Below are positions 1-28,247 of a stretch of DNA of 53,393 nucleotides, piece by piece. The position numbers were made by a program, and so were the translations under genes. The stretch spans positions 1 through 53,393 of the IMG/VR virus record IMGVR_UViG_3300031997_000012. The stretch is one strand, 5' to 3'. The notes under the pieces were generated by a model. The model ran no database searches. It was given only the letters and a program-made list of their open reading frames with translations, and was not told where the DNA came from. The stretch comes from a virus. Its lineage: Duplodnaviria; Caudoviricetes. Position 1 is the first letter of the stretch; each line of letters starts with the position of its first letter.

Positions 1-332
1 TTTTTCCTAGAACAAGACAAAATCTGTATCTGTCTAAACTTATTAAATAAAGAAGTTTTAAAATATTTATTAAATTCTGTTAACCTTTCAAAAGTAGGAT
101 CCTTAACTCTCCATTTAAATAGACATAAAGATAACGTCAAAAAACCCTCCTCAAAAAAATCCGAAAAAGTATACCTACCCTTCAGTTTAAAAGCAAAACG
201 ATTACCTGCCCAATAAATTAACTTAGAAAAACTTTTAACGATCTGTTCCTCCTTTCTTAAACAAAAGTCAACTAAATGTTCATTCTTAGAAAATCTAACA
301 ACACTATCATACCTTTTTGATACTCTTTTCAC
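1..332 (-). CDS. Sigma-70 region 2-like protein (phage sigma factor candidate), truncated by window edge
   Basis: Not in ORF track. GTG at 332 after GAGGAGG, open to base 1: MKRVSKRY...IVKSFSKLIYWAGNRF...SDFFEEGFLTLSLCLFKW...EFNKYFKTSLFNKFRQI, resembling sigma region 2 (DLxQEG...F.tY...i.N). Confidence 0.6.
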   Translation of the reverse strand, partial: MKRVSKRYDSVVRFSKNEHLVDFCLRKEEQIVKSFSKLIYWAGNRFAFKLKGRYTFSDFFEEGFLTLSLCLFKWRVKDPTFERLTEFNKYFKTSLFNKFRQIQILSCSRK

Positions 333-348
333 TACCTTTACCCTCCTC

Positions 349-1473
349 TCATACTGAATATAACGGACACTGCCTTTCTAAAGAAAGTAACTTGTCCCTA
401 AATTTAGCTAATTTTGAGTTAAACCAAATAGCATTAAAATTTTTGGACTTAACTACATCTAAACCTTCTTTCCAATCGCCAACACCCTCAGAAAAAGAGC
501 AAGGAAAACCCTGCCCTATAGAGTTAATGTAGAAACTCATAAGGGAACTTTCACAAGGTTCGGTAAATGTTACTAGTTTTTCATAATCTTTTCTATCTTT
601 TATAGCACTTAAAAATTTATGACAAGAACAACTATCCATACCTACTGGAATACTGTGTTCAAAAGATAAATTAATTATTTCTTTAAACTGTTCATTTGAT
701 AATGAATTATAGTTTTCTCCTCTCCCTTTCTTTTTTAAAGATAACAAAATAATAGCATTTAACCCTTTTAATCTAGCATCGGTTTTATAATCAATAAATG
801 TTTCTTTAATTTGATCAAATGTTTCCACTGCCACTAATTGATGGATATTGCACTGCTTCATTCCTCTATCTACTAATTTTTTTACTGAATTATAGCAATA
901 ATTTTTATTACTATATCTAGAAACTGCAACTGCTCCCATTACGTTAACCAGTTTATCAGCCACATTATCTGAAATATCTGCCACTGTAATATTAGGTATA
1001 ATTCCGTTATCCCTTGAATATTTAGCCATTTTCCATAAATCAGGATTTGATTCTGCCTGAGCATCTGCACCAAAGGCCAGCTGATTTATTATATTATGCT
1101 CTTTCATCTTATCTATAATAGTTTTAAACATTTCAAAAGACATATTACTTTTATTATTAGGACTATTTGACTTGTAGCAAAATGAACAAGGAATTCCACC
1201 AGGACCTTTACAAATATCGGTTATTTCAATATCTAATATCTCATTAAATGGAGCCATTACAGAATCTTCTTTTAAAGTTCTGCCCCATCTGACAAAAAAC
1301 CCTGTTTTCTTGTTAAAATTATAGTTGTAATCTTTAGAACGAATAATCTTAAAATTAGAATTTTCGTGTATCAGGATACCCTGAATATCCCTTGAATCAC
1401 TAGAAACGTTATTATTCCTTTTACTCGTTACTAGATTCTGTCTTATCCAGGCATATATTTTATTTATCATCAT
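349..1473 (-). CDS. Radical SAM protein with C-terminal SPASM/twitch-like Cys cluster
   Basis: DIEITDICKGPGGIPCSFCY (Cx7Cx2C variant of the radical SAM motif); C-terminal PCESS...PCSF...QCP. Confidence 0.85.
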   Translation of the reverse strand: MMINKIYAWIRQNLVTSKRNNNVSSDSRDIQGILIHENSNFKIIRSKDYNYNFNKKTGFFVRWGRTLKEDSVMAPFNEILDIEITDICKGPGGIPCSFCYKSNSPNNKSNMSFEMFKTIIDKMKEHNIINQLAFGADAQAESNPDLWKMAKYSRDNGIIPNITVADISDNVADKLVNVMGAVAVSRYSNKNYCYNSVKKLVDRGMKQCNIHQLVAVETFDQIKETFIDYKTDARLKGLNAIILLSLKKKGRGENYNSLSNEQFKEIINLSFEHSIPVGMDSCSCHKFLSAIKDRKDYEKLVTFTEPCESSLMSFYINSIGQGFPCSFSEGVGDWKEGLDVVKSKNFNAIWFNSKLAKFRDKLLSLERQCPLYSV

Positions 1474-1829
1474 GCTCCTTTCAAGTACTCTTCAAATAAT
1501 TTGTATGAGCCGAATCGGTCTTTAACTTTCTGTTCAATCTCTTTCTTAGTTAAACCAGATTCTTTCAAGAGATAATTTAGAACAAGATCATTCGAAAGAG
1601 TATCTAAATTACATATAGGACAAAATTCTATGGGAGTAGAATATCTATCATCAAGCTTGTCCTTAAGCTCCTTGTATACGTGACTATCACAAACAGTATG
1701 ACCATTTTTACATACAAACATATATGCATCCTCTAAACATAAATCCCAGTCACTTTCTATATTACCGCACACATGACACATAAAGCTAATCGAACTACTG
1801 TTACTTACAAATCCTGTTCTAATTTTCAT
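1470..1829 (-). CDS. Hypothetical Zn-binding protein with MKIRxGFVSNSSS N-terminus
   Basis: N-terminus MKIRTGFVSNSSSISF; CHVC, CKNGHTVC, CPIC; AAGGAG RBS; stop overlaps the radical SAM ATG (ATGA). Confidence 0.8.
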   Translation of the reverse strand: MKIRTGFVSNSSSISFMCHVCGNIESDWDLCLEDAYMFVCKNGHTVCDSHVYKELKDKLDDRYSTPIEFCPICNLDTLSNDLVLNYLLKESGLTKKEIEQKVKDRFGSYKLFEEYLKGA

Positions 1830-1913
1830 ACTATTCTCCTTTCATCCTATGTTAGACTTCGGTTTAATTTTTCTATAGACCCCCTACAGAATCGATCTAT
1901 CAAACCATCCGCC

Positions 1914-1933
1914 GCTGAGCTCAAACGTTAGCT
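1914..1933 (+). other. Right half of an integron attC-like site (L' GCTGAGC, spacer TCAAAC, R' GTTAGCT)
   Basis: GCCGCTGAGCTCAAACGTTAGCT has the typical attC 3' layout; GTTAGCTTGCA (1927-1937) is perfectly complementary to TGCAAGCTAAC (2030-2040). No matching left half upstream. Confidence 0.7.
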
Positions 1934-2033
1934 TGCAAATACTACGGAAGTTTCACCGTCAGAGCTGGAGTTGTCTTTCAACAACTCAATCCATTTCTGG
2001 ATTACGCTTTATTATTCGGTTGCGTTATCTGCA

Positions 2034-2073
2034 AGCTAACAAATTACTGGATCTGTATAATCAGTTGTTATCG
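2034..2073 (+). other. Short, degenerate attC-like site
   Basis: AGCTAAC-AAATT-ACTGGAT...ATCAGT-T-GTTATCG; L'' has one extra base relative to L', and the right spacer is reduced to 1 nt. Confidence 0.55.
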
Positions 2074-2289
2074 GTGACTGAAATTTATACACTTGTTATT
2101 AGGCATTACATTTATGCTGACTTCATCTGTAGAATACAGATCACAACCATAGAAAATTAAATGCCTACTTGGACCGAGGGTAAACCATGATCGTTCCTTA
2201 CAGACAAAACAACAATCAACCTCCGATAACAAGTCATTCGAGCGGACATTTGATAGTCCGTTATTTTTCTTGGTCTTAGTCTCTTTCAT
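2068..2289 (-). CDS. Cys-rich hypothetical protein carried on an attC-bounded cassette (73 aa)
   Basis: ATG at 2289 with GGAGGGG RBS (preferred to the track start at 2349); reads through the attC left half (NVRSNDLLS); its TAA stop lies in the GTTA core at 2067-2070. Confidence 0.6.
   Translation of the reverse strand: MKETKTKKNNGLSNVRSNDLLSEVDCCFVCKERSWFTLGPSRHLIFYGCDLYSTDEVSINVMPNNKCINFSHR
2224..2247 (+). other. Left half of an attC-like site (R'' CGATAAC, spacer AAGTC, L'' ATTCGAGC)
   Basis: TAACAAGTCATTCGAGCGGAC parallels the classic TAACAATTCATTCAAGCCGAC left arm; CCGATAAC is complementary to GTTATCGG at 2067. Confidence 0.7.
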
Positions 2290-2443
2290 TTCCCCTCCCG
2301 CTATGGTATAACCAATCATTCGAGTTGATGGCCAATAAATATTGGTCACAACTCAATTCTACGTTATCTGATAATGATATTGCATTTGCCACATTTCCAA
2401 TATAGAACAGCGGTTCTGCTTTTTCAAAAGTTTCCGTTTTCAT
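2276..2443 (-). CDS. Small ORF (55 aa) reading antisense through the complete attC site
   Basis: Not in track. ATG overlaps the RNA ligase stop (ATGA) with AAGGAGGTG RBS; MKTETFEKAEPLF...DNVELSCDQYLLAINSNDWLYHSGRGNERD. Confidence 0.45.
   Translation of the reverse strand: MKTETFEKAEPLFYIGNVANAISLSDNVELSCDQYLLAINSNDWLYHSGRGNERD
2306..2369 (+). other. Complete integron attC-like recombination site (64 bp)
   Basis: R'' GTATAAC, 5-nt spacer, L'' ATT(C)GAGT, TG(A)TGGCCAATA-AA-TATTGGTCACA, L' ACTCAAT, 5-nt spacer, R' GTTATCT. Both canonical extrahelical bases are present at the expected positions. Confidence 0.85.
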
Positions 2444-3339
2444 CCTACACCTCCTTTCAGTTCTCGACTTAATTTTTCTTTAAAAAGAATTGCCGTTCTT
2501 TTTCCAACTGCCTTTCTAACTTCTTTAGAATTTATTATTTCATCTACCCCTTCTCTGGATATATCTTCAATCATAGTTTTTATAATAAGTCCCATGTGTT
2601 CTATAGAGACTTCTGTTTGCAGTTCACTTCTCAACTTATCCAAAACATGTTCCAGCCTCATCCGAGTAACCCATTCGATAGCTACTTCATCTGCTTCATC
2701 TAAAATCTTTAATTTATTGCTATCAATAGGACGAGGAGTTTTAGTTTCACTAAACTCTTCATTTTTATACTTAGAAATAACCCTATTACCATTTTTAGTA
2801 AACTCATATAACGGTCTTAAAACAATACCCTCTCTCATTTTCCAGGAATCTGAATTATTTCTATCCGATATACCGTTCCTAAAGGCCTGCTCTGAAGGAG
2901 TTAAACGCTCCTTATCTAAATCTTGAATATCCGTTGTTATTTTCCTATAGTGAACAAATTCTAATCCTAGTGTTAGTGCCACAGATTCAGCATTAGGCAC
3001 ATTTAACCATATTTCGTCAATCCTTACCTCGAAAGCAACAAACTTTAAATTAGGACCGTAAGTCTTACTCATGCCCTGACATTTTCCTCCATAGGCTTCC
3101 CCAAATACAACGATCTCATTCTTGATAAAATTGAAAAGAAACTTTTCTTTTAAAAAATCCTCATTAAATAATAATTTAAACTGTGCGTGATTAGCACCCC
3201 CTGCAAAAAAGCTTAAACTACCATCAGTTTTCCATGAAATATGTGCTGATGTCCCATGTATCTTTTCCATAGCATAGCACTCTTTAAAAAGAAAAATATC
3301 TCTATTTTTGTAAAGATTATCTATTGATAGATAAGACAT
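2440..3339 (-). CDS. RNA ligase, Rnl2 family
   Basis: Nucleotidyltransferase motifs MEKIHGT, VFGEAYG, FVAFEV, REGIVLRP, SKYKNEEFSE, plus a helical C-terminal domain. Confidence 0.85.
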   Translation of the reverse strand: MSYLSIDNLYKNRDIFLFKECYAMEKIHGTSAHISWKTDGSLSFFAGGANHAQFKLLFNEDFLKEKFLFNFIKNEIVVFGEAYGGKCQGMSKTYGPNLKFVAFEVRIDEIWLNVPNAESVALTLGLEFVHYRKITTDIQDLDKERLTPSEQAFRNGISDRNNSDSWKMREGIVLRPLYEFTKNGNRVISKYKNEEFSETKTPRPIDSNKLKILDEADEVAIEWVTRMRLEHVLDKLRSELQTEVSIEHMGLIIKTMIEDISREGVDEIINSKEVRKAVGKRTAILFKEKLSRELKGGVG

Positions 3340-3383
3340 AGTACCTCCTTAAAAGTGATGGAAAATTTATCCACCACTAAAGA

Positions 3384-6128
3384 TCATTCAAATACCTTTG
3401 AAACTAAATCCTTTATTTCTTCTATGCCAACTGGTTTTCCAAGAATATATCCTACATTATACTTTGATCTCTCCTCATTAAAACCCGAAGAGCCCCAACC
3501 AGAAATAACTGCAACCTTCATAGGATATTTATCCTTAATCTCTTCAGCTAATTGCCAACCATTCATCTCTGGCATTCCTATATCCGTAATCATCAAATCA
3601 TACTTATTTCTTCTAAGCAATTCCAGGGCCTCCTTTCCACTACCAGCTACATCACCAGAATATCCCAAAATTTCTAAAAACATTTTACCTATATTTCTCA
3701 ATTCTACCTCATCATCTACCCATAACACTTTAGCAGTTTTAGAAATAGCAGCTTTCTTTTCTTTTTGAAATTTCTTCACTCCTAATGGAAATGTTAACTC
3801 CATTGTTGTTCCTTTACCAATCTCTGAATTTTTAACAAATATTTTTCCACCATGATCTCTAACAATTCCAAAAACAGCACTCATTCCGAGACCCCTGCCT
3901 ACTTCAAAACCTTTGGTTGTAAAGAATGGCTGAAAAATACGTTTTATGATGCTCTCATGCATTCCTATACCAGTATCAGAAATTCTAACACAAATTTCGT
4001 TATCTTCAATACTGGTTTCCAGAACTATCTTTCCACCATTAGGCATTGCTTCAAGCCCGTTCTTAATAACATTATGGAAAACACTAGTAAGTTCCCCTTC
4101 ATTTCCATCAATAAGCTCTATTTTTCCAAATGATTTCTGAATCGAAAATGTCAACCCTTTCTTTTCAGCACTATCTTTCCATAAAGGACGAAGTTGAAGA
4201 GTAACTTCATTCAGAATGTCATGCAAGTCTAAAGATTTATATACATTATTTTGTTCTTTTTGAGCAAATCGTTGAAGCTGCCGAACCCGAGCTGCGGCAT
4301 CCTTAGCCGCTCTTCTAGAAGAGTTGATAAAAGTAACTACTTCTTGAGAAAGATCCGGACTTAGTAATGCCAGATCCAAATTCCCAAAAATCATCTGAAG
4401 ACTATTATTAAAGTCGTGTGCAACTCCTATAGACATTTCCCCAACTGCAGCTAAACGTTCTGATTCCAGCAAAATCTTCTCAAGCTTCTTTTGCTCAGTA
4501 ATATCACGGATAATAACTACATCCGCCAGCTTTCCCTGCAAATGAATGATACTCCCACTTGTTTCAACAACTATTTTTTCCCCACTTTTTTTCACTAAAA
4601 TAATTTCAAATAATGGAGAAAGTTCTTTACCTAACATTCTCTTCTTATATCTTTCTAATACCAATTCCAAACTTTCAGATATAATAAAGTTTTTCAAAGG
4701 CATACCCTTAGCTTCTTCAACTGTATAACCCAACATATTTGTAAAGCCTGTATTTGAAAATTCAACAACACCGTCCTGTAATATCACAATAGCATCATTA
4801 GCTTTCTCAACAACTATTCTATACTTCTCTTCACTCTCCTGTAATGCCATATCAAGTTGCTTACGATCCGTAATATCCATAATAAATCCCTGAAATCCCG
4901 TTAATTCACCATCAGTAAATACTGGCAAACTATGCATACGAATAAAACATCTACTGCCATCACCTCTAAATAAAGAATATTCTGCTGGAGTTGTGACTCC
5001 TCCATTAATAATATTATTTACATTAATTTGCATACGTTCTCGATCTTCAGGTACTATCAAATCAAAACCATTCAGACCTCGTTCAAACTGTTCCTTTGTA
5101 TATCTGAATAACGAAAATGCTTTTCTGTTTACATATATCAATTTTCCGTTTCTATCCATCTCAAAAAGAGTTAAAGGTAATGATTCAGCGAAGTTTTGAA
5201 ACCTCTCTTCTTTTTCATTTAAAATCTTATCGACTTTCAACTTCTGATTAGTAACATCTCTAACAATACCATAAAACCCTATCGATTTACCTAAACTATT
5301 TTTTAGTAAAGATACCGAGGTCTCAACATATCGTTTCATCCCATCTTTTGTAATAATCTCCCAATCGAATTCTTTAGTGGGTTCCCCTGTTTTGTAAACT
5401 TTATTGAAGGCTCGAAACAATTTTTTACGTTCCTCTTGATCTGTGTATTGTTGGTTACCCATACCCATCATTTCATCTTTGGAGTAACCCAACATTCGGC
5501 ACAGAGAATCATTAAAGAAGGTGAAATTACCGGCAATATCCACCTCAAAGTAGCCCTCCTCAATGTTTTCAAGAATCGTTCGATATTTCTTCTCACTTTC
5601 TAACAGAACCCCCTCTACCTGGACTAACTCAGTGACATCATGACCAATACCCCGAAATCCAATTGGATTGCCCTTTTTATCCAGCATTAAAGATGCTGTC
5701 AATTGATGAAAATTATGAGTTCCATCTTTTTTAATCACTTCATAACCAAACTTTCTTACTGATTTTCCTGTTTTATAAATTTGTTCAAAAACAGAAAAGA
5801 TTTCCTTAGCTGATTTTGGAGACATATAGTCTCTGTTGTTCATCCCAATCAGTTCATCCTTAGAATATCCCAGAATATTCACCAATGCATTATTAAAAAA
5901 TACAAAATTACCTTTAAGATCAACCTCGAAATATGCCTCATTTATGCTTTCTAGAAGATTTTGATACTTCTCCTTAGATTCAAAGAAAGCATTTTCCTCT
6001 AAGTTGCGTCGCAAAAGTTCAGTAGCATCATGTCCCATGCCACCAAAAAAATAACACTTCTCATCTTCTGTCTCAAAATATTCTTTAGTAATATTAATTA
6101 CTTTCTTATTTTTGAAATTCAAGTCCAT
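3384..6128 (-). CDS. Cytoplasmic hybrid sensor histidine kinase (4 PAS + HisKA + HATPase + receiver)
   Basis: Four PAS/PAC repeats; H-box GVAHDFNN; N-box NVIKNGLEAM; DTGIGM; FQPFFTTK; GRGLGMS; receiver VDDE...TDIGMPEMNG...GKP; no transmembrane segment. Confidence 0.95.
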   Translation of the reverse strand: MDLNFKNKKVINITKEYFETEDEKCYFFGGMGHDATELLRRNLEENAFFESKEKYQNLLESINEAYFEVDLKGNFVFFNNALVNILGYSKDELIGMNNRDYMSPKSAKEIFSVFEQIYKTGKSVRKFGYEVIKKDGTHNFHQLTASLMLDKKGNPIGFRGIGHDVTELVQVEGVLLESEKKYRTILENIEEGYFEVDIAGNFTFFNDSLCRMLGYSKDEMMGMGNQQYTDQEERKKLFRAFNKVYKTGEPTKEFDWEIITKDGMKRYVETSVSLLKNSLGKSIGFYGIVRDVTNQKLKVDKILNEKEERFQNFAESLPLTLFEMDRNGKLIYVNRKAFSLFRYTKEQFERGLNGFDLIVPEDRERMQINVNNIINGGVTTPAEYSLFRGDGSRCFIRMHSLPVFTDGELTGFQGFIMDITDRKQLDMALQESEEKYRIVVEKANDAIVILQDGVVEFSNTGFTNMLGYTVEEAKGMPLKNFIISESLELVLERYKKRMLGKELSPLFEIILVKKSGEKIVVETSGSIIHLQGKLADVVIIRDITEQKKLEKILLESERLAAVGEMSIGVAHDFNNSLQMIFGNLDLALLSPDLSQEVVTFINSSRRAAKDAAARVRQLQRFAQKEQNNVYKSLDLHDILNEVTLQLRPLWKDSAEKKGLTFSIQKSFGKIELIDGNEGELTSVFHNVIKNGLEAMPNGGKIVLETSIEDNEICVRISDTGIGMHESIIKRIFQPFFTTKGFEVGRGLGMSAVFGIVRDHGGKIFVKNSEIGKGTTMELTFPLGVKKFQKEKKAAISKTAKVLWVDDEVELRNIGKMFLEILGYSGDVAGSGKEALELLRRNKYDLMITDIGMPEMNGWQLAEEIKDKYPMKVAVISGWGSSGFNEERSKYNVGYILGKPVGIEEIKDLVSKVFE

Positions 6129-6238
6129 TTTTTCACCTCCGTTAACACACTAAATAGAAATCCAAAAATCACAACACAAATAGATACACTGATGAAACTT
6201 CCTATAATAAAACCAGCCCAAAATGGATTAAAATTCAT
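6119..6238 (-). CDS. Small single-pass membrane protein (39 aa)
   Basis: Not in track. AAGGAGG RBS; MNFNPFWAGFIIGSFISVSICVVIFGFLFSVLTEVKKWT; overlaps the kinase start. Confidence 0.65.
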   Translation of the reverse strand: MNFNPFWAGFIIGSFISVSICVVIFGFLFSVLTEVKKWT

Positions 6239-15768: not shown

Positions 15769-15912
15769 TATAGCAGTGATTCTGGTTATTCTGTATTTAC
15801 TGCTATTCCAAGTATTTTCTCTTTCATAAAACTTCTGAAAATTTGAATAGCCTGAATATCCAGAATCACTGCTGTATCCTGAATATCCAGAATCACTGCT
15901 GTATCCTGAATA
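15769..15912. repeat. 27-bp tandem repeat (2.3 copies) plus an inverted copy
   Basis: CCTGAATATCCAGAATCACTGCTGTAT at 15851-15877 and 15878-15904, partial to 15912; inverted 21/23 copy at 15769-15791. Confidence 0.9.
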
Positions 15913-26999: not shown

Positions 27000-28247
27000 T
27001 CACAAGGCTATAACAGTTAGATTAGCCCATGACCATGTTATAGGATACAAAGCATAACGTGTAGCCTGAACTTTTATTGTATGTAAACCTGCGGCTAAAG
27101 ACACAACCTCTTGAACTGTATTACACGTAGACCAGTTACCTGCACCTCCCCCCACTGCCAAACCTCCGAAACGCCATTCTCTTTCTATGCCCCCACCCGT
27201 AAATTTCATACGATGTGCATACCCTACAGTATCTGAAGGTTGAGCTGAGCACATGAGCAAAACAGATCTTGGTGATGATAAACTTATTGTAACTTCTAAA
27301 CCTGTATCAGAAAAACCGTTTATAAGTGCATAGCTATCTACTGAAGAAGATCCAAAAGTTCCTACAGACCCATGACAATGCAAAGTTTCTGCATTAGAAG
27401 TCGGTCCATGAGTTAATGTATTTAAATTAGCAGCAGTAACATGGCTATCTATGCCATCTAATGCCTGATTAATTTCTGCACCTGTTGTTGATATAGGGGT
27501 TGCCCCTATTTGCCATAAACCTTCTTTATGATGACCGGCGTTAACTCCAGTTAAATGATGATCTGTTCCAAACAATGTTGACCAAAATTCTAACCTTTGG
27601 ACTCTTGTCGTTGAAGTCCAATTAGGAACTGCTGCAGATGAAGTTCCTGTTGTATCTATAATAGTTAGAAGTCCTGTAGTTCCATTATACTGAATTTCTG
27701 CAATAGCCCAATAACCAGCTGGAGCATTGGGAGCATTAAGTGCATTAAGTGCTGAATATGCTATTACTATATCAAAATAAGCTTTATTTAGCAAAGTATT
27801 TACAGATGCAGTTGCATAAGTATTTGGACTCACTGTATCATCTACAAACCAGCGACTCCCCGCTTCTTTTGGTAAATCAGTCTGCTTTATACAAATTGAT
27901 ACCCAACGAGTGTTTCCTGCTACTGGAGATGCTTCTAATCCCGTTCCACTAAGAGGCCATGTTCCAGAACCACCAGTAAAAATACTAATAGTTTCTGCAG
28001 CATCTACCTGCACTACCTTTTGTGCAAACTGAAGAACACCCGCACTTAAACTAACGGTTTTTGCCGCCCCTGTTACCCTTAGTGTAGTTTGGGTAGAATC
28101 ATCCATTATTCGTCCTTGATTAAGAGGACTCAAACAAAGCCAATTTTCACCAATAAAATTAGCAACATTTGAATGATCAGCAGATTTATTTAAGTCTAAA
28201 AGCTCGACTAATTGTTTGTCTGTCCAATTCGCAACATCAAGCGCCAT
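27000..28247 (-). CDS. Tail fibre / receptor-binding protein candidate
   Basis: Last gene of the baseplate block; Thr/Gly-rich beta-type sequence, HxH motif, C-terminal C1q/BclA-like head (AAGLHTIKVQ). Confidence 0.6.
   Translation of the reverse strand: MALDVANWTDKQLVELLDLNKSADHSNVANFIGENWLCLSPLNQGRIMDDSTQTTLRVTGAAKTVSLSAGVLQFAQKVVQVDAAETISIFTGGSGTWPLSGTGLEASPVAGNTRWVSICIKQTDLPKEAGSRWFVDDTVSPNTYATASVNTLLNKAYFDIVIAYSALNALNAPNAPAGYWAIAEIQYNGTTGLLTIIDTTGTSSAAVPNWTSTTRVQRLEFWSTLFGTDHHLTGVNAGHHKEGLWQIGATPISTTGAEINQALDGIDSHVTAANLNTLTHGPTSNAETLHCHGSVGTFGSSSVDSYALINGFSDTGLEVTISLSSPRSVLLMCSAQPSDTVGYAHRMKFTGGGIEREWRFGGLAVGGGAGNWSTCNTVQEVVSLAAGLHTIKVQATRYALYPITWSWANLTVIAL

What the first reader, a model, noticed from the sequence alone, without database searches (positions are those of the whole stretch)
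1911..2369. Integron attC cassette cluster inside a phage operon, with antisense ORFs and no integrase
Seen: one complete attC (2306-2369) with both canonical extrahelical bases, plus a left half (2224), a shortened site (2034) and a right half (1914). Cassette ends are mutually complementary (GTTAGCTTGCA/TGCAAGCTAAC; GTTATCGG/CCGATAAC), as expected when IntI inserts a circular cassette. The extrahelical bases orient the sites on +, but the ORFs run on -, read through the attC arms and use the core TAA as stop, the reverse of normal cassettes. No tyrosine recombinase is in the window. Inference: the phage gains or shuffles micro-genes using a host or distant integron integrase, in the orientation that fits its own operon.
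Basis: partly seen in the sequence, partly recalled or inferred. Interest (0 to 1): 0.85.

Follow-up and report, generated by a model that had tools for sequence, protein, structure and literature searches.

The report
Decayed integron cassette cluster in phage
A tailed phage from sediment carries, between two of its own genes, one intact and three decayed integron recombination hairpins that bound tiny gene cassettes facing backwards; phage-borne cassette clusters of this kind are already described, so this is a small further example.

Summary
I built an attC covariance model from 44 sites in cassette arrays beside integron-integrase genes in bacterial genomes. None of these sites came from the window.

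- **2306-2369:** 36.1 bits, E 1.4e-6 (its minus strand scores 4.0 bits).
- **The other three:** 9.3-11.9 bits, each insignificant alone.
- **Controls:** 720 kb of other phage DNA gave one hit, at 20.4 bits. The three attC sites the model found in phage TJE1, a phage with published, IntI1-tested attC sites, score 33.7-38.2.

Two cassette starts are complementary to their own R'' region rather than to the neighbouring R', which is the mark of G|TT crossover. No tyrosine recombinase lies on the contig, which is about 32% complete.

It is a decayed cluster of attC sites lacking an integrase. One 296-bp cassette carries a 73-aa ORF antisense to the attC but co-oriented with the phage operon. I found no evidence of ongoing shuffling.

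Such clusters in phages are published (Qi et al. 2023). Earlier notes of this scan report reversed phage arrays on other DNA. I class it as a new member of a known kind, of moderate interest.

The parts
2306..2369 (+). Intact attC site (site 4). R'' 2306-2312; spacer 2313-2317; L'' 2318-2320 with unpaired C 2321; stem 2322-2327; unpaired A 2328; terminal stem-loop 2329-2348; stem 2349-2354; L' 2355-2357; spacer 2358-2362; R' 2363-2369. Crossover point G2363|T2364.
   Evidence: R1 scores 36.1 bits, E 1.4e-6, on + and 4.0 bits on -. Fold. The same motif occurs in attC sites of arrays beside intI and in metagenome arrays.
2224..2266 (+). Decayed attC (site 3). R'', spacer, L'' and a short hairpin are kept. 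The right L box and spacer are deleted, and R' GTTATTT follows directly. It lies inside ORF73.
   Evidence: R1 scores 11.9 bits, the 2nd best hit in the window. Positions 2226-2247 are 21/22 identical to the left arm of attC sites in L066-L068. Direct repeat of 2308-2324.
2034..2073 (+). Decayed, shortened attC (site 2). R'' AGCTAAC, 5-nt spacer, L box with one unpaired base, 7-nt loop; the 3' spacer is reduced to 1 nt. R' GTTATCG holds the stop codon of ORF73 on the other strand.
   Evidence: R1 scores 10.7 bits on + and 8.5 on -. The fold alone is not better than shuffles.
1899..1933 (+). Decayed attC (site 1). Only the outer boxes and the right L'/R' part (GCTCAAACGTTAGCT) remain.
   Evidence: R1 scores 9.3 bits, the 4th best hit in the window.
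2068..2363 (+). Cassette X, 296 bp. It runs from the TT after G2067 to G2363. Its own attC is site 4, and its cargo is ORF73 in antisense orientation.
   Evidence: Boundaries come from the R' cores of sites 2 and 4. ORF73 fills 2068-2289, with a purine-rich SD-like run at 2292-2299.
1928..2067 (+). Cassette Y, 140 bp, with no ORF on either strand. Its start (1927-1941) pairs with the R'' region of its own site 2 (2026-2040). The interior holds further attC-like fragments (GAGTTG..CAACTCAAT, CGTTATCTG).
   Evidence: Inverted repeat of 15 nt, 93% complementary. 1927-2040 folds with z -5.6 on + and -6.5 on -. Repeats D10 and D13. GAGTTG..CAACTC occurs twice in the window, both times here, and 0 of 100 shuffles give 2.
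2068..2289 (-). ORF73, a 73-aa Cys-rich protein of unknown function. It is the likely cargo of cassette X and is co-oriented with the phage operon.
   Evidence: It is kept open in a relative that is 81% identical by BLASTP (79% in the alignment), with an in-frame one-codon deletion and the same C-terminus. Its codon score is -0.10, against a phage-gene mean of 0.449 (sd 0.124), so it is foreign or non-coding. No Pfam or PHROG match for the 93-aa form of this frame (2068-2349).
2276..2443 (-). ORF55. Its ATG overlaps the RNA ligase stop. The first 24 full codons (2370-2443) have phage-like codon usage. The rest is the antisense reading of site 4 and of the SD region of ORF73.
   Evidence: Codon score is 0.363 before the attC and -0.027 in frame across it. 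Its only tblastn matches elsewhere are residues 27-53, lying over attC sites of other loci.
2059..2238 (.). Inverted repeat 2059-2081 / 2216-2238. The start of cassette X (GTTATCGG) is complementary to the R'' region of site 3 (CCGATAAC).
   Evidence: 23 nt, 78% complementary. My count from the sequence is 12/15 against 7/15 for the linear R'.
1823..1877 (.). Left copy of an imperfect direct repeat that brackets the cluster (right copy 2421-2482). It may be a duplicated gene-junction sequence.
   Evidence: Repeats D1 and D3. Local alignment score 40; 2 of 1000 shuffles and 3 of 382 other window segments reach it.
2440..3339 (-). Context: phage RNA ligase gene upstream of the cluster in the direction of transcription.
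   Evidence: PF09414 at 4.5e-10; phrog_548 at 5.8e-32.
1470..1829 (-). Context: 119-aa Cys-rich gene downstream of the cluster, followed by a radical SAM/SPASM-like gene (349-1473).

Best explanation
Positions 1899-2369 are a small, largely decayed cluster of integron gene cassettes (a CALIN, a cluster of attC sites lacking an integrase). It sits between the RNA ligase gene and a Cys-rich gene of a myovirus-type phage.

Shown:
- One attC (2306-2369) is intact and strongly polar, with its top strand on +.
- Three more attC relics lie on the same strand.
- They divide the DNA at G|TT into cassettes of 140 bp (1928-2067, empty) and 296 bp (2068-2363).
- The 296-bp cassette carries a 73-aa ORF antisense to its attC. 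The ORF has its own SD-like run, points the way the phage operon is transcribed, and ends in the TAA of the next site's core.

Inferred:
- The cassette junctions were made by an integron integrase acting in trans. It could be host-encoded or lie on the unrecovered two thirds of the phage genome. The route would be insertion of a circular cassette at a secondary GWT-type site, followed by attC x attC additions.
- Hairpin deletions then inactivated three of the four sites, so the cargo is now fixed and is expressed by read-through from the phage operon.
- ORF55 is a phage leader ORF that now runs on into the antisense of the attC.
For: Independent model. R1 was built from 44 attC sites of arrays beside TIGR02249 integrases. 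The one array site found with a window-derived pattern was left out.

Window scan, filters off, both strands. There are 6 hits at E<=10. The top 4 all lie on + within 471 nt, at 36.1, 11.9, 10.7 and 9.3 bits. The minus strand of the intact site scores 4.0 bits.

Controls:
- 1 hit (20.4 bits, E 0.13) in 720,149 bases of 64 other phage loci.
- 147 hits at E<=0.01 in 276,003 bases of 23 array loci, all 147 on the strand expected from intI by my reading of the table.
- The held-out array site L079:6328-6402 scores 36.0.
- R1 finds three attC sites in phage TJE1, at 33.7-38.2 bits. Two TJE1 sites were among the five of six phage sites recombined by IntI1 in PMC9892861 (section 3.4).

Family membership by sequence:
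- A pattern made from the window's site found 2 places in 185,579 species genomes. Both genomes have an integron integrase over the curated cut-off, and one hit lies about 6.3 kb from intI on the array strand.
- A second pattern found 29 metagenome loci. At 24 of them R1 calls an attC at the match, mostly inside arrays.
- L118 holds a near-identical attC.

Crossover signature. The cassette start at 1927 is 14/15 complementary to the R'' region of its own site 2, and the start at 2067 is 12/15 complementary to that of site 3. The adjacent linear R' gives 7/15 in each case.

Phage context and real junctions. The contig encodes tail sheath, baseplate and tail fibre proteins and a helicase. Contigs of other runs tile 1400-2654 with no differences.

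No integrase. PF00589 and TIGR02249 find nothing on the contig.

ORF73 is kept open in a relative that is 81% identical by BLASTP.

Mechanistic precedents. Insertion at GWT secondary sites, and loss of attC hairpins by replication slippage, are described in bioRxiv 10.1101/2022.09.11.507474 (passages read).
Against: - Only one site is significant on its own. A default two-site rule for such clusters might not report this locus (bioRxiv 10.1101/2022.02.28.482270, passages read).
- I could not run IntegronFinder's or HattCI's own models. R1's E-values are rough.
- R'' (GTATAAC) and R' (GTTATCT) depart from RYYYAAC/GTTRRRY at 1 and 2 positions.
- Site 3 lies inside ORF73, so either that site or the ORF is secondary.
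- ORF73's codon score (-0.10) is below every 73-codon chunk of the phage's long genes (minimum 0.143).
- Site 4 does not show the crossover signature (6/15 against 9/15, my count).
- The left end of the cluster is undefined.
- No recombination was tested, and no excision joint was seen.
- The imperfect direct repeats that bracket the block fit import by ordinary recombination as well.
Confidence: 0.75

Rival explanations
1. The cassettes are genuine, but IntI never acted on this phage. The whole block was imported by homologous or illegitimate recombination from another phage or from host DNA that already carried it. It is now only a passenger.
For: - Imperfect direct repeats of about 55 nt (1823-1877 / 2421-2482) bracket the block. 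2 of 1000 shuffles and 3 of 382 other window segments reach the alignment score.
- Three of the four sites are decayed.
- The contig has no integrase.
- Qi et al. propose off-target homologous or illegitimate recombination for phage attC clusters (PMC9892861, section 3.4).
Against: - The right junction is an intact attC whose R' continues into phage sequence, as expected for direct insertion at a G|TT/GWT site.
- The repeat may only reflect similar ribosome-site and start regions.
- An HMM of RNA ligase relatives finds no ligase remnant in 1830-2445.
- This rival is not exclusive of the main reading. The junctions inside the block still need an integrase at some time.
Confidence: 0.3
2. The hairpins are the phage's own RNA or DNA regulatory structures (transcript processing, stabilising or terminator-like elements). 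They resemble attC sites only by convergence.
For: - They lie in a polycistronic operon between genes.
- 1927-2040 is strongly structured on the transcribed strand (z -6.5).
- attC sites are thought to contain weak terminators (PMC9892861, section 3.4).
Against: - Similarity is at the level of sequence family, not fold alone. The window's motif retrieves attC sites inside arrays next to intI.
- The model prefers + (36.1 bits) to the transcribed strand (4.0 bits).
- The motifs occur nowhere else in 53 kb.
- Rfam finds nothing.
Confidence: 0.05
3. It is chance: ordinary AT-rich hairpins picked out by eye from 53 kb.
For: Three of the four sites are individually insignificant (E 1.2-5.1). The short site does not fold better than shuffles.
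Against: - E is 1.4e-6 for the intact site.
- The four best hits in 106,786 searched bases fall within 471 nt on one strand.
- 720 kb of control DNA gave one weak hit.
Confidence: 0.02
4. It is an assembly chimera joining phage DNA to a bacterial integron fragment.
For: The contig is a metagenome assembly. Other contigs in the same kind of sample carry a similar attC with different flanks (loose ends at 2309 and 2358).
Against: - Contigs assembled separately from other runs cross both junctions without a difference. X6 record 17 covers 1400-2164. X8 records 24, 26 and 28 cover 1688-2654. The runs may belong to one campaign.
- G+C of the block is 0.38, against 0.30-0.37 in the neighbouring kilobases.
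- ORF55's ATG overlaps the ligase stop.
Confidence: 0.03

Closest known systems
CALINs (clusters of attC sites lacking an integron integrase) in bacteriophage genomes (Qi, Rajabal, Ghaly, Tetu and Gillings 2023, Front Microbiol, PMC9892861; outline, sections 2.1 and 3.4 and passages read)
   Same: - attC sites of integron type sit inside a tailed phage genome with no integrase nearby.
- Scores under my model equal those of the three attC sites it finds in phage TJE1 (36.1 against 33.7-38.2 bits).
- The cassettes are small.
   Different: - Only one site is intact, so this is a remnant rather than an array.
- Cassettes are 140 and 296 bp.
- The one gene is antisense to its attC. In TJE1 the genes and attC sites share a strand.
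- The supplementary tables of that paper could not be opened, so I cannot say whether reversed cases are listed there.
Bacterial integrons and sedentary chromosomal cassette arrays (IntI, attI, attC)
   Same: - The attC architecture and sequence family are the same.
- Junctions lie at G|TT.
- The cassette start is complementary to the cassette's own R''.
   Different: - No intI, attI or Pc is present on the contig.
- In bacterial arrays the longer ORF is sense to the attC in 46 of 53 intervals. In metagenome arrays of this attC family it is sense in 37 of 39. Here it is antisense.
Cassette insertion at secondary genomic sites (attG, GWT consensus) (bioRxiv 10.1101/2022.09.11.507474; passages read)
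   Same: - A cassette lies outside any attI, inside a transcription unit.
- Expression depends on a resident promoter.
- The authors suggest attC hairpins can be lost by replication slippage, leaving domesticated cassettes.
   Different: That work was shown for bacterial chromosomes in the laboratory. A phage genome as target is my inference, and the target site before insertion is not known here.
Reversed attC cassette arrays in other phage contigs
   Same: - There is no integrase on the record.
- attC top strands are antisense to the genes. 13 of 14 intervals are antisense, 1 is a tie and 0 are sense.
- Dam and DUF7446 genes are confirmed on the antisense strand.
   Different: - Those contigs have 6-12 good sites with one gene per cassette. 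The window has one good site and one gene.
- L066-L068 share near-identical sites and may be one lineage.

Membership tests
Integron attC recombination site | Inverted core sites R'' (RYYYAAC) and R' (GTTRRRY) with invariant AAC and GTT | tested here: met
   GTATAAC at 2306-2312 and GTTATCT at 2363-2369. AAC and GTT are present, and 5 bp pair. R'' has one departure from the degenerate consensus and R' has two. AAC and GTT are the only invariant columns of the 44 reference sites.
Integron attC recombination site | Unpaired central spacers of about 5 nt between the R box and the L box | tested here: met
   2313-2317 and 2358-2362 are unpaired in the minimum-energy and centroid folds. Reference sites have the same layout.
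Integron attC recombination site | L box with an extrahelical base on the R''-L'' arm and a second extrahelical base a few pairs further in. These set strand polarity (G and T on the bottom strand; names recalled). | tested here: met
   C2321 and A2328 are unpaired on +, which gives G and T on the bottom strand, with 6 bp between them. The model aligns them to its unpaired columns. Strand scores are 36.1 against 4.0 bits.
Integron attC recombination site | Significant score with a covariance model trained on attC sites of integrase-linked arrays | tested here: met
   R1 gives 36.1 bits, E 1.4e-6. IntegronFinder's own model was not available, so that exact test is not done.
Integron attC recombination site | Recombined by an integron integrase at G|TT of the bottom strand | not testable with these tools
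   Indirect only. Two cassette starts are complementary to their own R'' region (14/15 and 12/15) rather than to the adjacent R' (7/15 each).
CALIN (cluster of attC sites lacking integron integrase) | At least two attC sites close together (IntegronFinder 2 default; bioRxiv 10.1101/2022.02.28.482270) | tested here: inconclusive
   One significant site plus three sub-threshold sites (9.3-11.9 bits). Together these are the four best hits of the window and lie on one strand.
CALIN (cluster of attC sites lacking integron integrase) | No integron integrase nearby | tested here: met
   TIGR02249 and PF00589 give 0 matches on the 53,393-base record. The record is about 32% complete, so absence from the whole phage is not shown.
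Complete integron | intI gene with adjacent attI and Pc promoter | tested here: not met
   No intI on the contig. attI and Pc were not searched for separately.

The most novel reading that the evidence does not exclude
Reversed polarity may be an adaptation of phage cassette arrays and not an accident.

In the window and in three other viral contigs, the recombinogenic bottom strand of the attC sites is the sense strand of the genes. If replication runs with transcription, as the strong G-over-C excess on the sense strand would fit, the bottom strands lie on the lagging-strand template. In Vibrio cholerae that orientation raised cassette excision from below 7e-5 to 3e-2 (PMC13108822, passages read).

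Phages would then offer cassettes to any host integrase in the high-exchange orientation, while still expressing them from phage promoters. On this reading the window's cluster is a burnt-out example of such a system.
Probability: 0.2. Interest if true: 0.7.

Novelty: new member of a known kind. Interest (0 to 1): 0.4.

Why it matters
It adds a case, checked with a model that owes nothing to the window, of integron cassettes inside a large environmental phage. It also shows what such a cluster looks like after decay: one live site, three relics, and a foreign small gene fixed in the operon.

The attC subfamily links the phage to cassette arrays in sediment and freshwater metagenomes (L115, L116 and L118). 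That could help to name its host.

The backwards orientation also appears in three other viral contigs here and in earlier notes of this scan. It deserves a systematic survey, because orientation governs how easily cassettes are excised. On its own the window's locus is small, and there is no sign that it is still active.

Tried and rejected
- **Rfam and tRNA scans.** Nothing at gathering level in the window. Three chance-level hits (E 4.6-7.9) in 1700-2600. No tRNA.
- **Annotated phage records (blastn).** One 53-nt match for 1-6200 and none for L066:10100-10400.
- **Synteny in relatives.** 34 RNA-ligase loci (44-59% identity) share no neighbour with the window. Loci with the Cys-rich gene or the radical SAM gene hold no similar DNA. 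So relatives could not be compared for presence or absence of the cassettes.
- **Ligase remnant.** I considered that 1847-1924 is a leftover RNA-ligase C-terminus (EKLNRSLT* resembles the usual KQKLNSTLK* ending). A profile of 25 ligases finds nothing in the six frames of 1830-2445, so I dropped the idea.
- **Other sequencing runs.** Contigs of four runs showed no joints, indels or variant letters. Contigs drop rare variants, so this says nothing about excision.
- **Relatives of ORF73.** A protein scan of metagenome contigs found none. Pfam and PHROGs gave nothing for the 93-aa form of the ORF73 frame or for ORF55. The protein atlas returned only unnamed viral clusters at 0.92, with recognition below its own threshold.
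- **ORF-length heuristic.** It misses ORFs whose stop lies more than 12 nt inside an attC. It miscounted one TJE1 interval where the annotated methylase is sense. For TJE1 I therefore rely on the annotation, and for L065, L067 and L068 on the Pfam-confirmed genes.
- **A general rule of reversal.** The idea that all phage clusters are reversed is rejected by TJE1.
- **Literature searches.** Searches listed no paper on reversed phage cassettes. I read only listings for most of them, and the supplements of PMC9892861 were closed.
Full report
**Setting.** The window is a whole IMG/VR virus record of 53,393 bases, linear, with an estimated completeness of 32%. All long ORFs lie on the minus strand. 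It encodes tail sheath, baseplate wedge and tail fibre proteins and a DNA helicase, plus an RNA ligase, an NAD-dependent DNA ligase and a radical SAM/SPASM-like protein. It is a myovirus-type phage fragment. The finding lies in a 610-base stretch (1830-2439) between the RNA ligase gene (2440-3339, -) and a 119-aa Cys-rich gene (1470-1829, -).

**What the sequence shows.** As single-stranded DNA, 2306-2369 folds into the following elements:
- a 5-bp outer stem, ATAAC/GTTAT;
- 5 unpaired bases on each side;
- a 3-bp stem, then an unpaired C (2321);
- a 6-bp stem, then an unpaired A (2328);
- a terminal stem-loop.

The z-score is -5.0 on + and -3.65 on -. The left arm recurs at 2226-2242 (15 of 17 identical), and GAGTTG..CAACTC recurs at 1968-1987. 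Both motifs occur only here in the window. Two long-range inverted repeats are anchored on GTTA/TAAC: 1927-1941 with 2026-2040, and 2059-2081 with 2216-2238. They are 2 of only 12 such repeats in 53 kb.

**An independent test for attC.**
- A gapped pattern made from the site found four other viral contigs and two bacterial genomes. Both genomes encode an integron integrase above the curated cut-off of TIGR02249. One match lies about 6.3 kb from that gene, on the strand of the array.
- I then searched 301 genomes of that class for TIGR02249 and found a match in 115. I cut out the DNA on the attI side of 23 integrase genes and picked candidate sites with a simple rule-based scan.
- I kept 44 well-folded, non-redundant sites of 54-76 nt, leaving out the one site found with the window's pattern. 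From these I built covariance model R1 with a hand-set structure of 15 pairs.
- R1 finds 147 sites at E<=0.01 in the 276 kb of array DNA. By my reading of the table, all are on the strand predicted from the integrase gene, and most were not in the seed.
- It finds one weak hit (20.4 bits) in 720 kb of unrelated phage loci.
- It finds three sites, at 33.7-38.2 bits, in Tetrasphaera phage TJE1. The paper describes 3 attC sites in that phage's cluster. Two TJE1 sites were among the five of six phage sites that IntI1 recombined (PMC9892861, section 3.4).

**Result on the window.**
- With filters off, R1 gives six hits at E<=10 over both strands. The best four are 2306-2369 (36.1 bits, E 1.4e-6), 2224-2266 (11.9), 2034-2073 (10.7) and 1899-1933 (9.3).
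- The remaining two hits are the minus strand of 2034-2073 (8.5 bits) and 27008-27043 (8.2 bits).
- The minus strand of the intact site scores 4.0 bits, so polarity is unambiguous.
- The three weak sites are not significant singly. Their clustering with the strong one, on its strand, within 471 of 53,393 bases, is very unlikely by chance.
- The alignments show how they decayed. Site 3 lost its right L box and spacer. Site 2 lost its 3' spacer and has a 7-nt loop. Site 1 keeps little more than the outer boxes and the right arm.

**Cassette junctions.** The R' cores place crossover points at 1927|1928, 2067|2068, 2260|2261 and 2363|2364. In a cassette inserted by an integron integrase, the bases after the upstream G belong to the cassette and pair with its own R''. 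Counting from the sequence:
- the start at 1927 is 14/15 complementary to 2026-2040 (site 2);
- the start at 2067 is 12/15 complementary to 2216-2230 (site 3);
- the R' regions that now follow those sites match only 7/15 each;
- site 4 does not show this signature (6/15 against 9/15).

Because the R boxes differ between these cassettes, the test discriminates here.

**Coding content.** On the strand of the attC sites there is no ORF that respects the junctions. On the phage's strand there are two.

*ORF73 (2068-2289):*
- It begins 17 nt beyond site 4 in the direction of transcription, just after a purine-rich SD-like run.
- It fills cassette 2068-2363.
- It ends in the TAA of site 2's core.
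- One relative, 81% identical by BLASTP (79% in the alignment), keeps the frame open, with a one-codon deletion and the same C-terminus.
- Its codon score (-0.10) is far below the phage's genes (mean 0.449, sd 0.124, minimum 0.143). That fits a foreign gene, or no gene at all.
- It has no known family.

*ORF55 (2276-2443):*
- It starts on the ligase stop.
- It looks coding for the 24 full codons before the attC (score 0.363), then simply reads the attC backwards (score -0.027).
- Its only matches elsewhere lie over other attC sites.

I take ORF73 as the probable cargo of a reversed cassette, and ORF55 as a short phage ORF extended by accident.

**Where the site family lives.**
- A second pattern, made from the stem of the site, found 29 metagenome loci. 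At 24 of them R1 calls an attC at the match, mostly inside arrays of up to 15 sites.
- In six of these arrays the longer ORF is sense to the attC in 37 of 39 intervals, as in the bacterial arrays (46 of 53).
- L115, L116 and L118 carry a site that differs from the window's core by three C-to-T changes in the terminal stem. Contigs with that same site and its flanks turn up in the sediment runs that hold the phage (loose ends at 2309 and 2358).
- The phage's cassette therefore belongs to a local pool.

**Is the junction real, and is it active?**
- Contigs assembled from other runs tile 1400-2654 without a difference, so a chimera is unlikely.
- The same data show no joint that skips a cassette. 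Contigs cannot show rare forms, so activity remains untested.
- With one intact site, excision would need a second partner. I therefore consider the cluster a fossil with one possibly live site.

**Orientation.**
- In three other viral contigs found with the first pattern (L065, from a complete 194-kb phage with terminal repeats, plus L067 and L068), R1 finds 6 to 12 sites on one strand. No integrase is present on those records.
- The genes run antisense to the sites in 13 of 14 intervals, with one tie. These genes include Dam methylases and a DUF7446 protein.
- TJE1 is the other way round, that is, canonical. Reversal is therefore frequent but not a rule.
- L066-L068 share near-identical sites and may be one lineage, so independent cases are few.
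- Earlier notes of this scan report reversed phage arrays on other DNA. Those are unchecked AI notes, and I count them only as a sign that this is not new to the scan.

**Comparison with what is known.** Clusters of attC sites without an integrase in phages were described by Qi et al. (2023), who found 17 among 10,705 phage genomes and showed recombination by IntI1. Insertion of cassettes at GWT secondary sites, expression from resident promoters, and loss of attC hairpins by slippage are described for bacteria. The window fits these as a decayed member. Its own features are the very small cassettes, the reversed gene and the state of decay.

**Limits.**
- R1 is my own model with shortened calibration.
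- IntegronFinder and HattCI were not available.
- No experiment was possible.
- Supplementary tables of the key paper were closed.
- Two thirds of the phage genome are missing.

Noticed in passing
window 1780-1829 (- strand); L035-L063: The first 16-20 residues of the 119-aa gene (MKIRTGFVSNSSS...) recur at the start of several otherwise different ORFs near homologues of the radical SAM/SPASM-like gene in other viral contigs. There are 8 copies in L049 and 4 in L053. Many unrelated contigs of the sediment runs pile up on 1778-1831 alone. It looks like a shared leader or recognition peptide for the enzyme.
   Followed up: partly
L065 = G001:C1 about 77.8-79.3 kb, 105.1-106.7 kb and 118.1-119.2 kb: A complete 194-kb phage with terminal repeats has at least 9 attC sites (E<=0.001) in three separate clusters, all on one strand. 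There is no integron integrase on the record. The genes, including a Dam methylase, run antisense to the sites.
   Followed up: partly
L067 6577-7961; L068 3670-9459: Viral contigs carry 6-7 closely spaced attC sites (about 170-450 nt apart within the arrays), each followed in the gene direction by a ribosome site and a small gene whose stop lies in the next site's outer box. The sites are reversed relative to bacterial arrays.
   Followed up: partly
L118 8100-8381 (also L115, L116): This metagenome array holds the attC closest to the window's. That one cassette also has its ORF antisense to the attC (68 against 51 codons), with a ribosome site about 70 nt before the site. The other six intervals of the array are sense.
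   Followed up: partly
window 1927-2040: A 114-nt element is closed by an 11-15-bp stem and holds three or four internal hairpins. It is far more stable than shuffles on both strands (z -5.6 and -6.5). I read it as an empty cassette made of attC debris, but a role as a structured RNA in the operon is not excluded.
   Followed up: partly
window 15769-15903: These are the longest local inverted repeats of the window (28-nt arms, 86% complementary, 79 nt apart, with a second 23-nt arm at 15854-15876). They lie partly in an ORF-poor gap.
   Followed up: no
window 3384-6128 (- strand): A 914-aa hybrid histidine kinase with four PAS domains, HATPase_c and a receiver domain sits inside the phage operon. 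This is unusual phage cargo.
   Followed up: no
window 1823-1877 and 2421-2482: Imperfect direct repeats (74-84% identical) lie just upstream of the start codons of the 119-aa gene and of ORF55, bracketing the cassette block. They may be a duplicated junction or only similar translation-start regions.
   Followed up: partly
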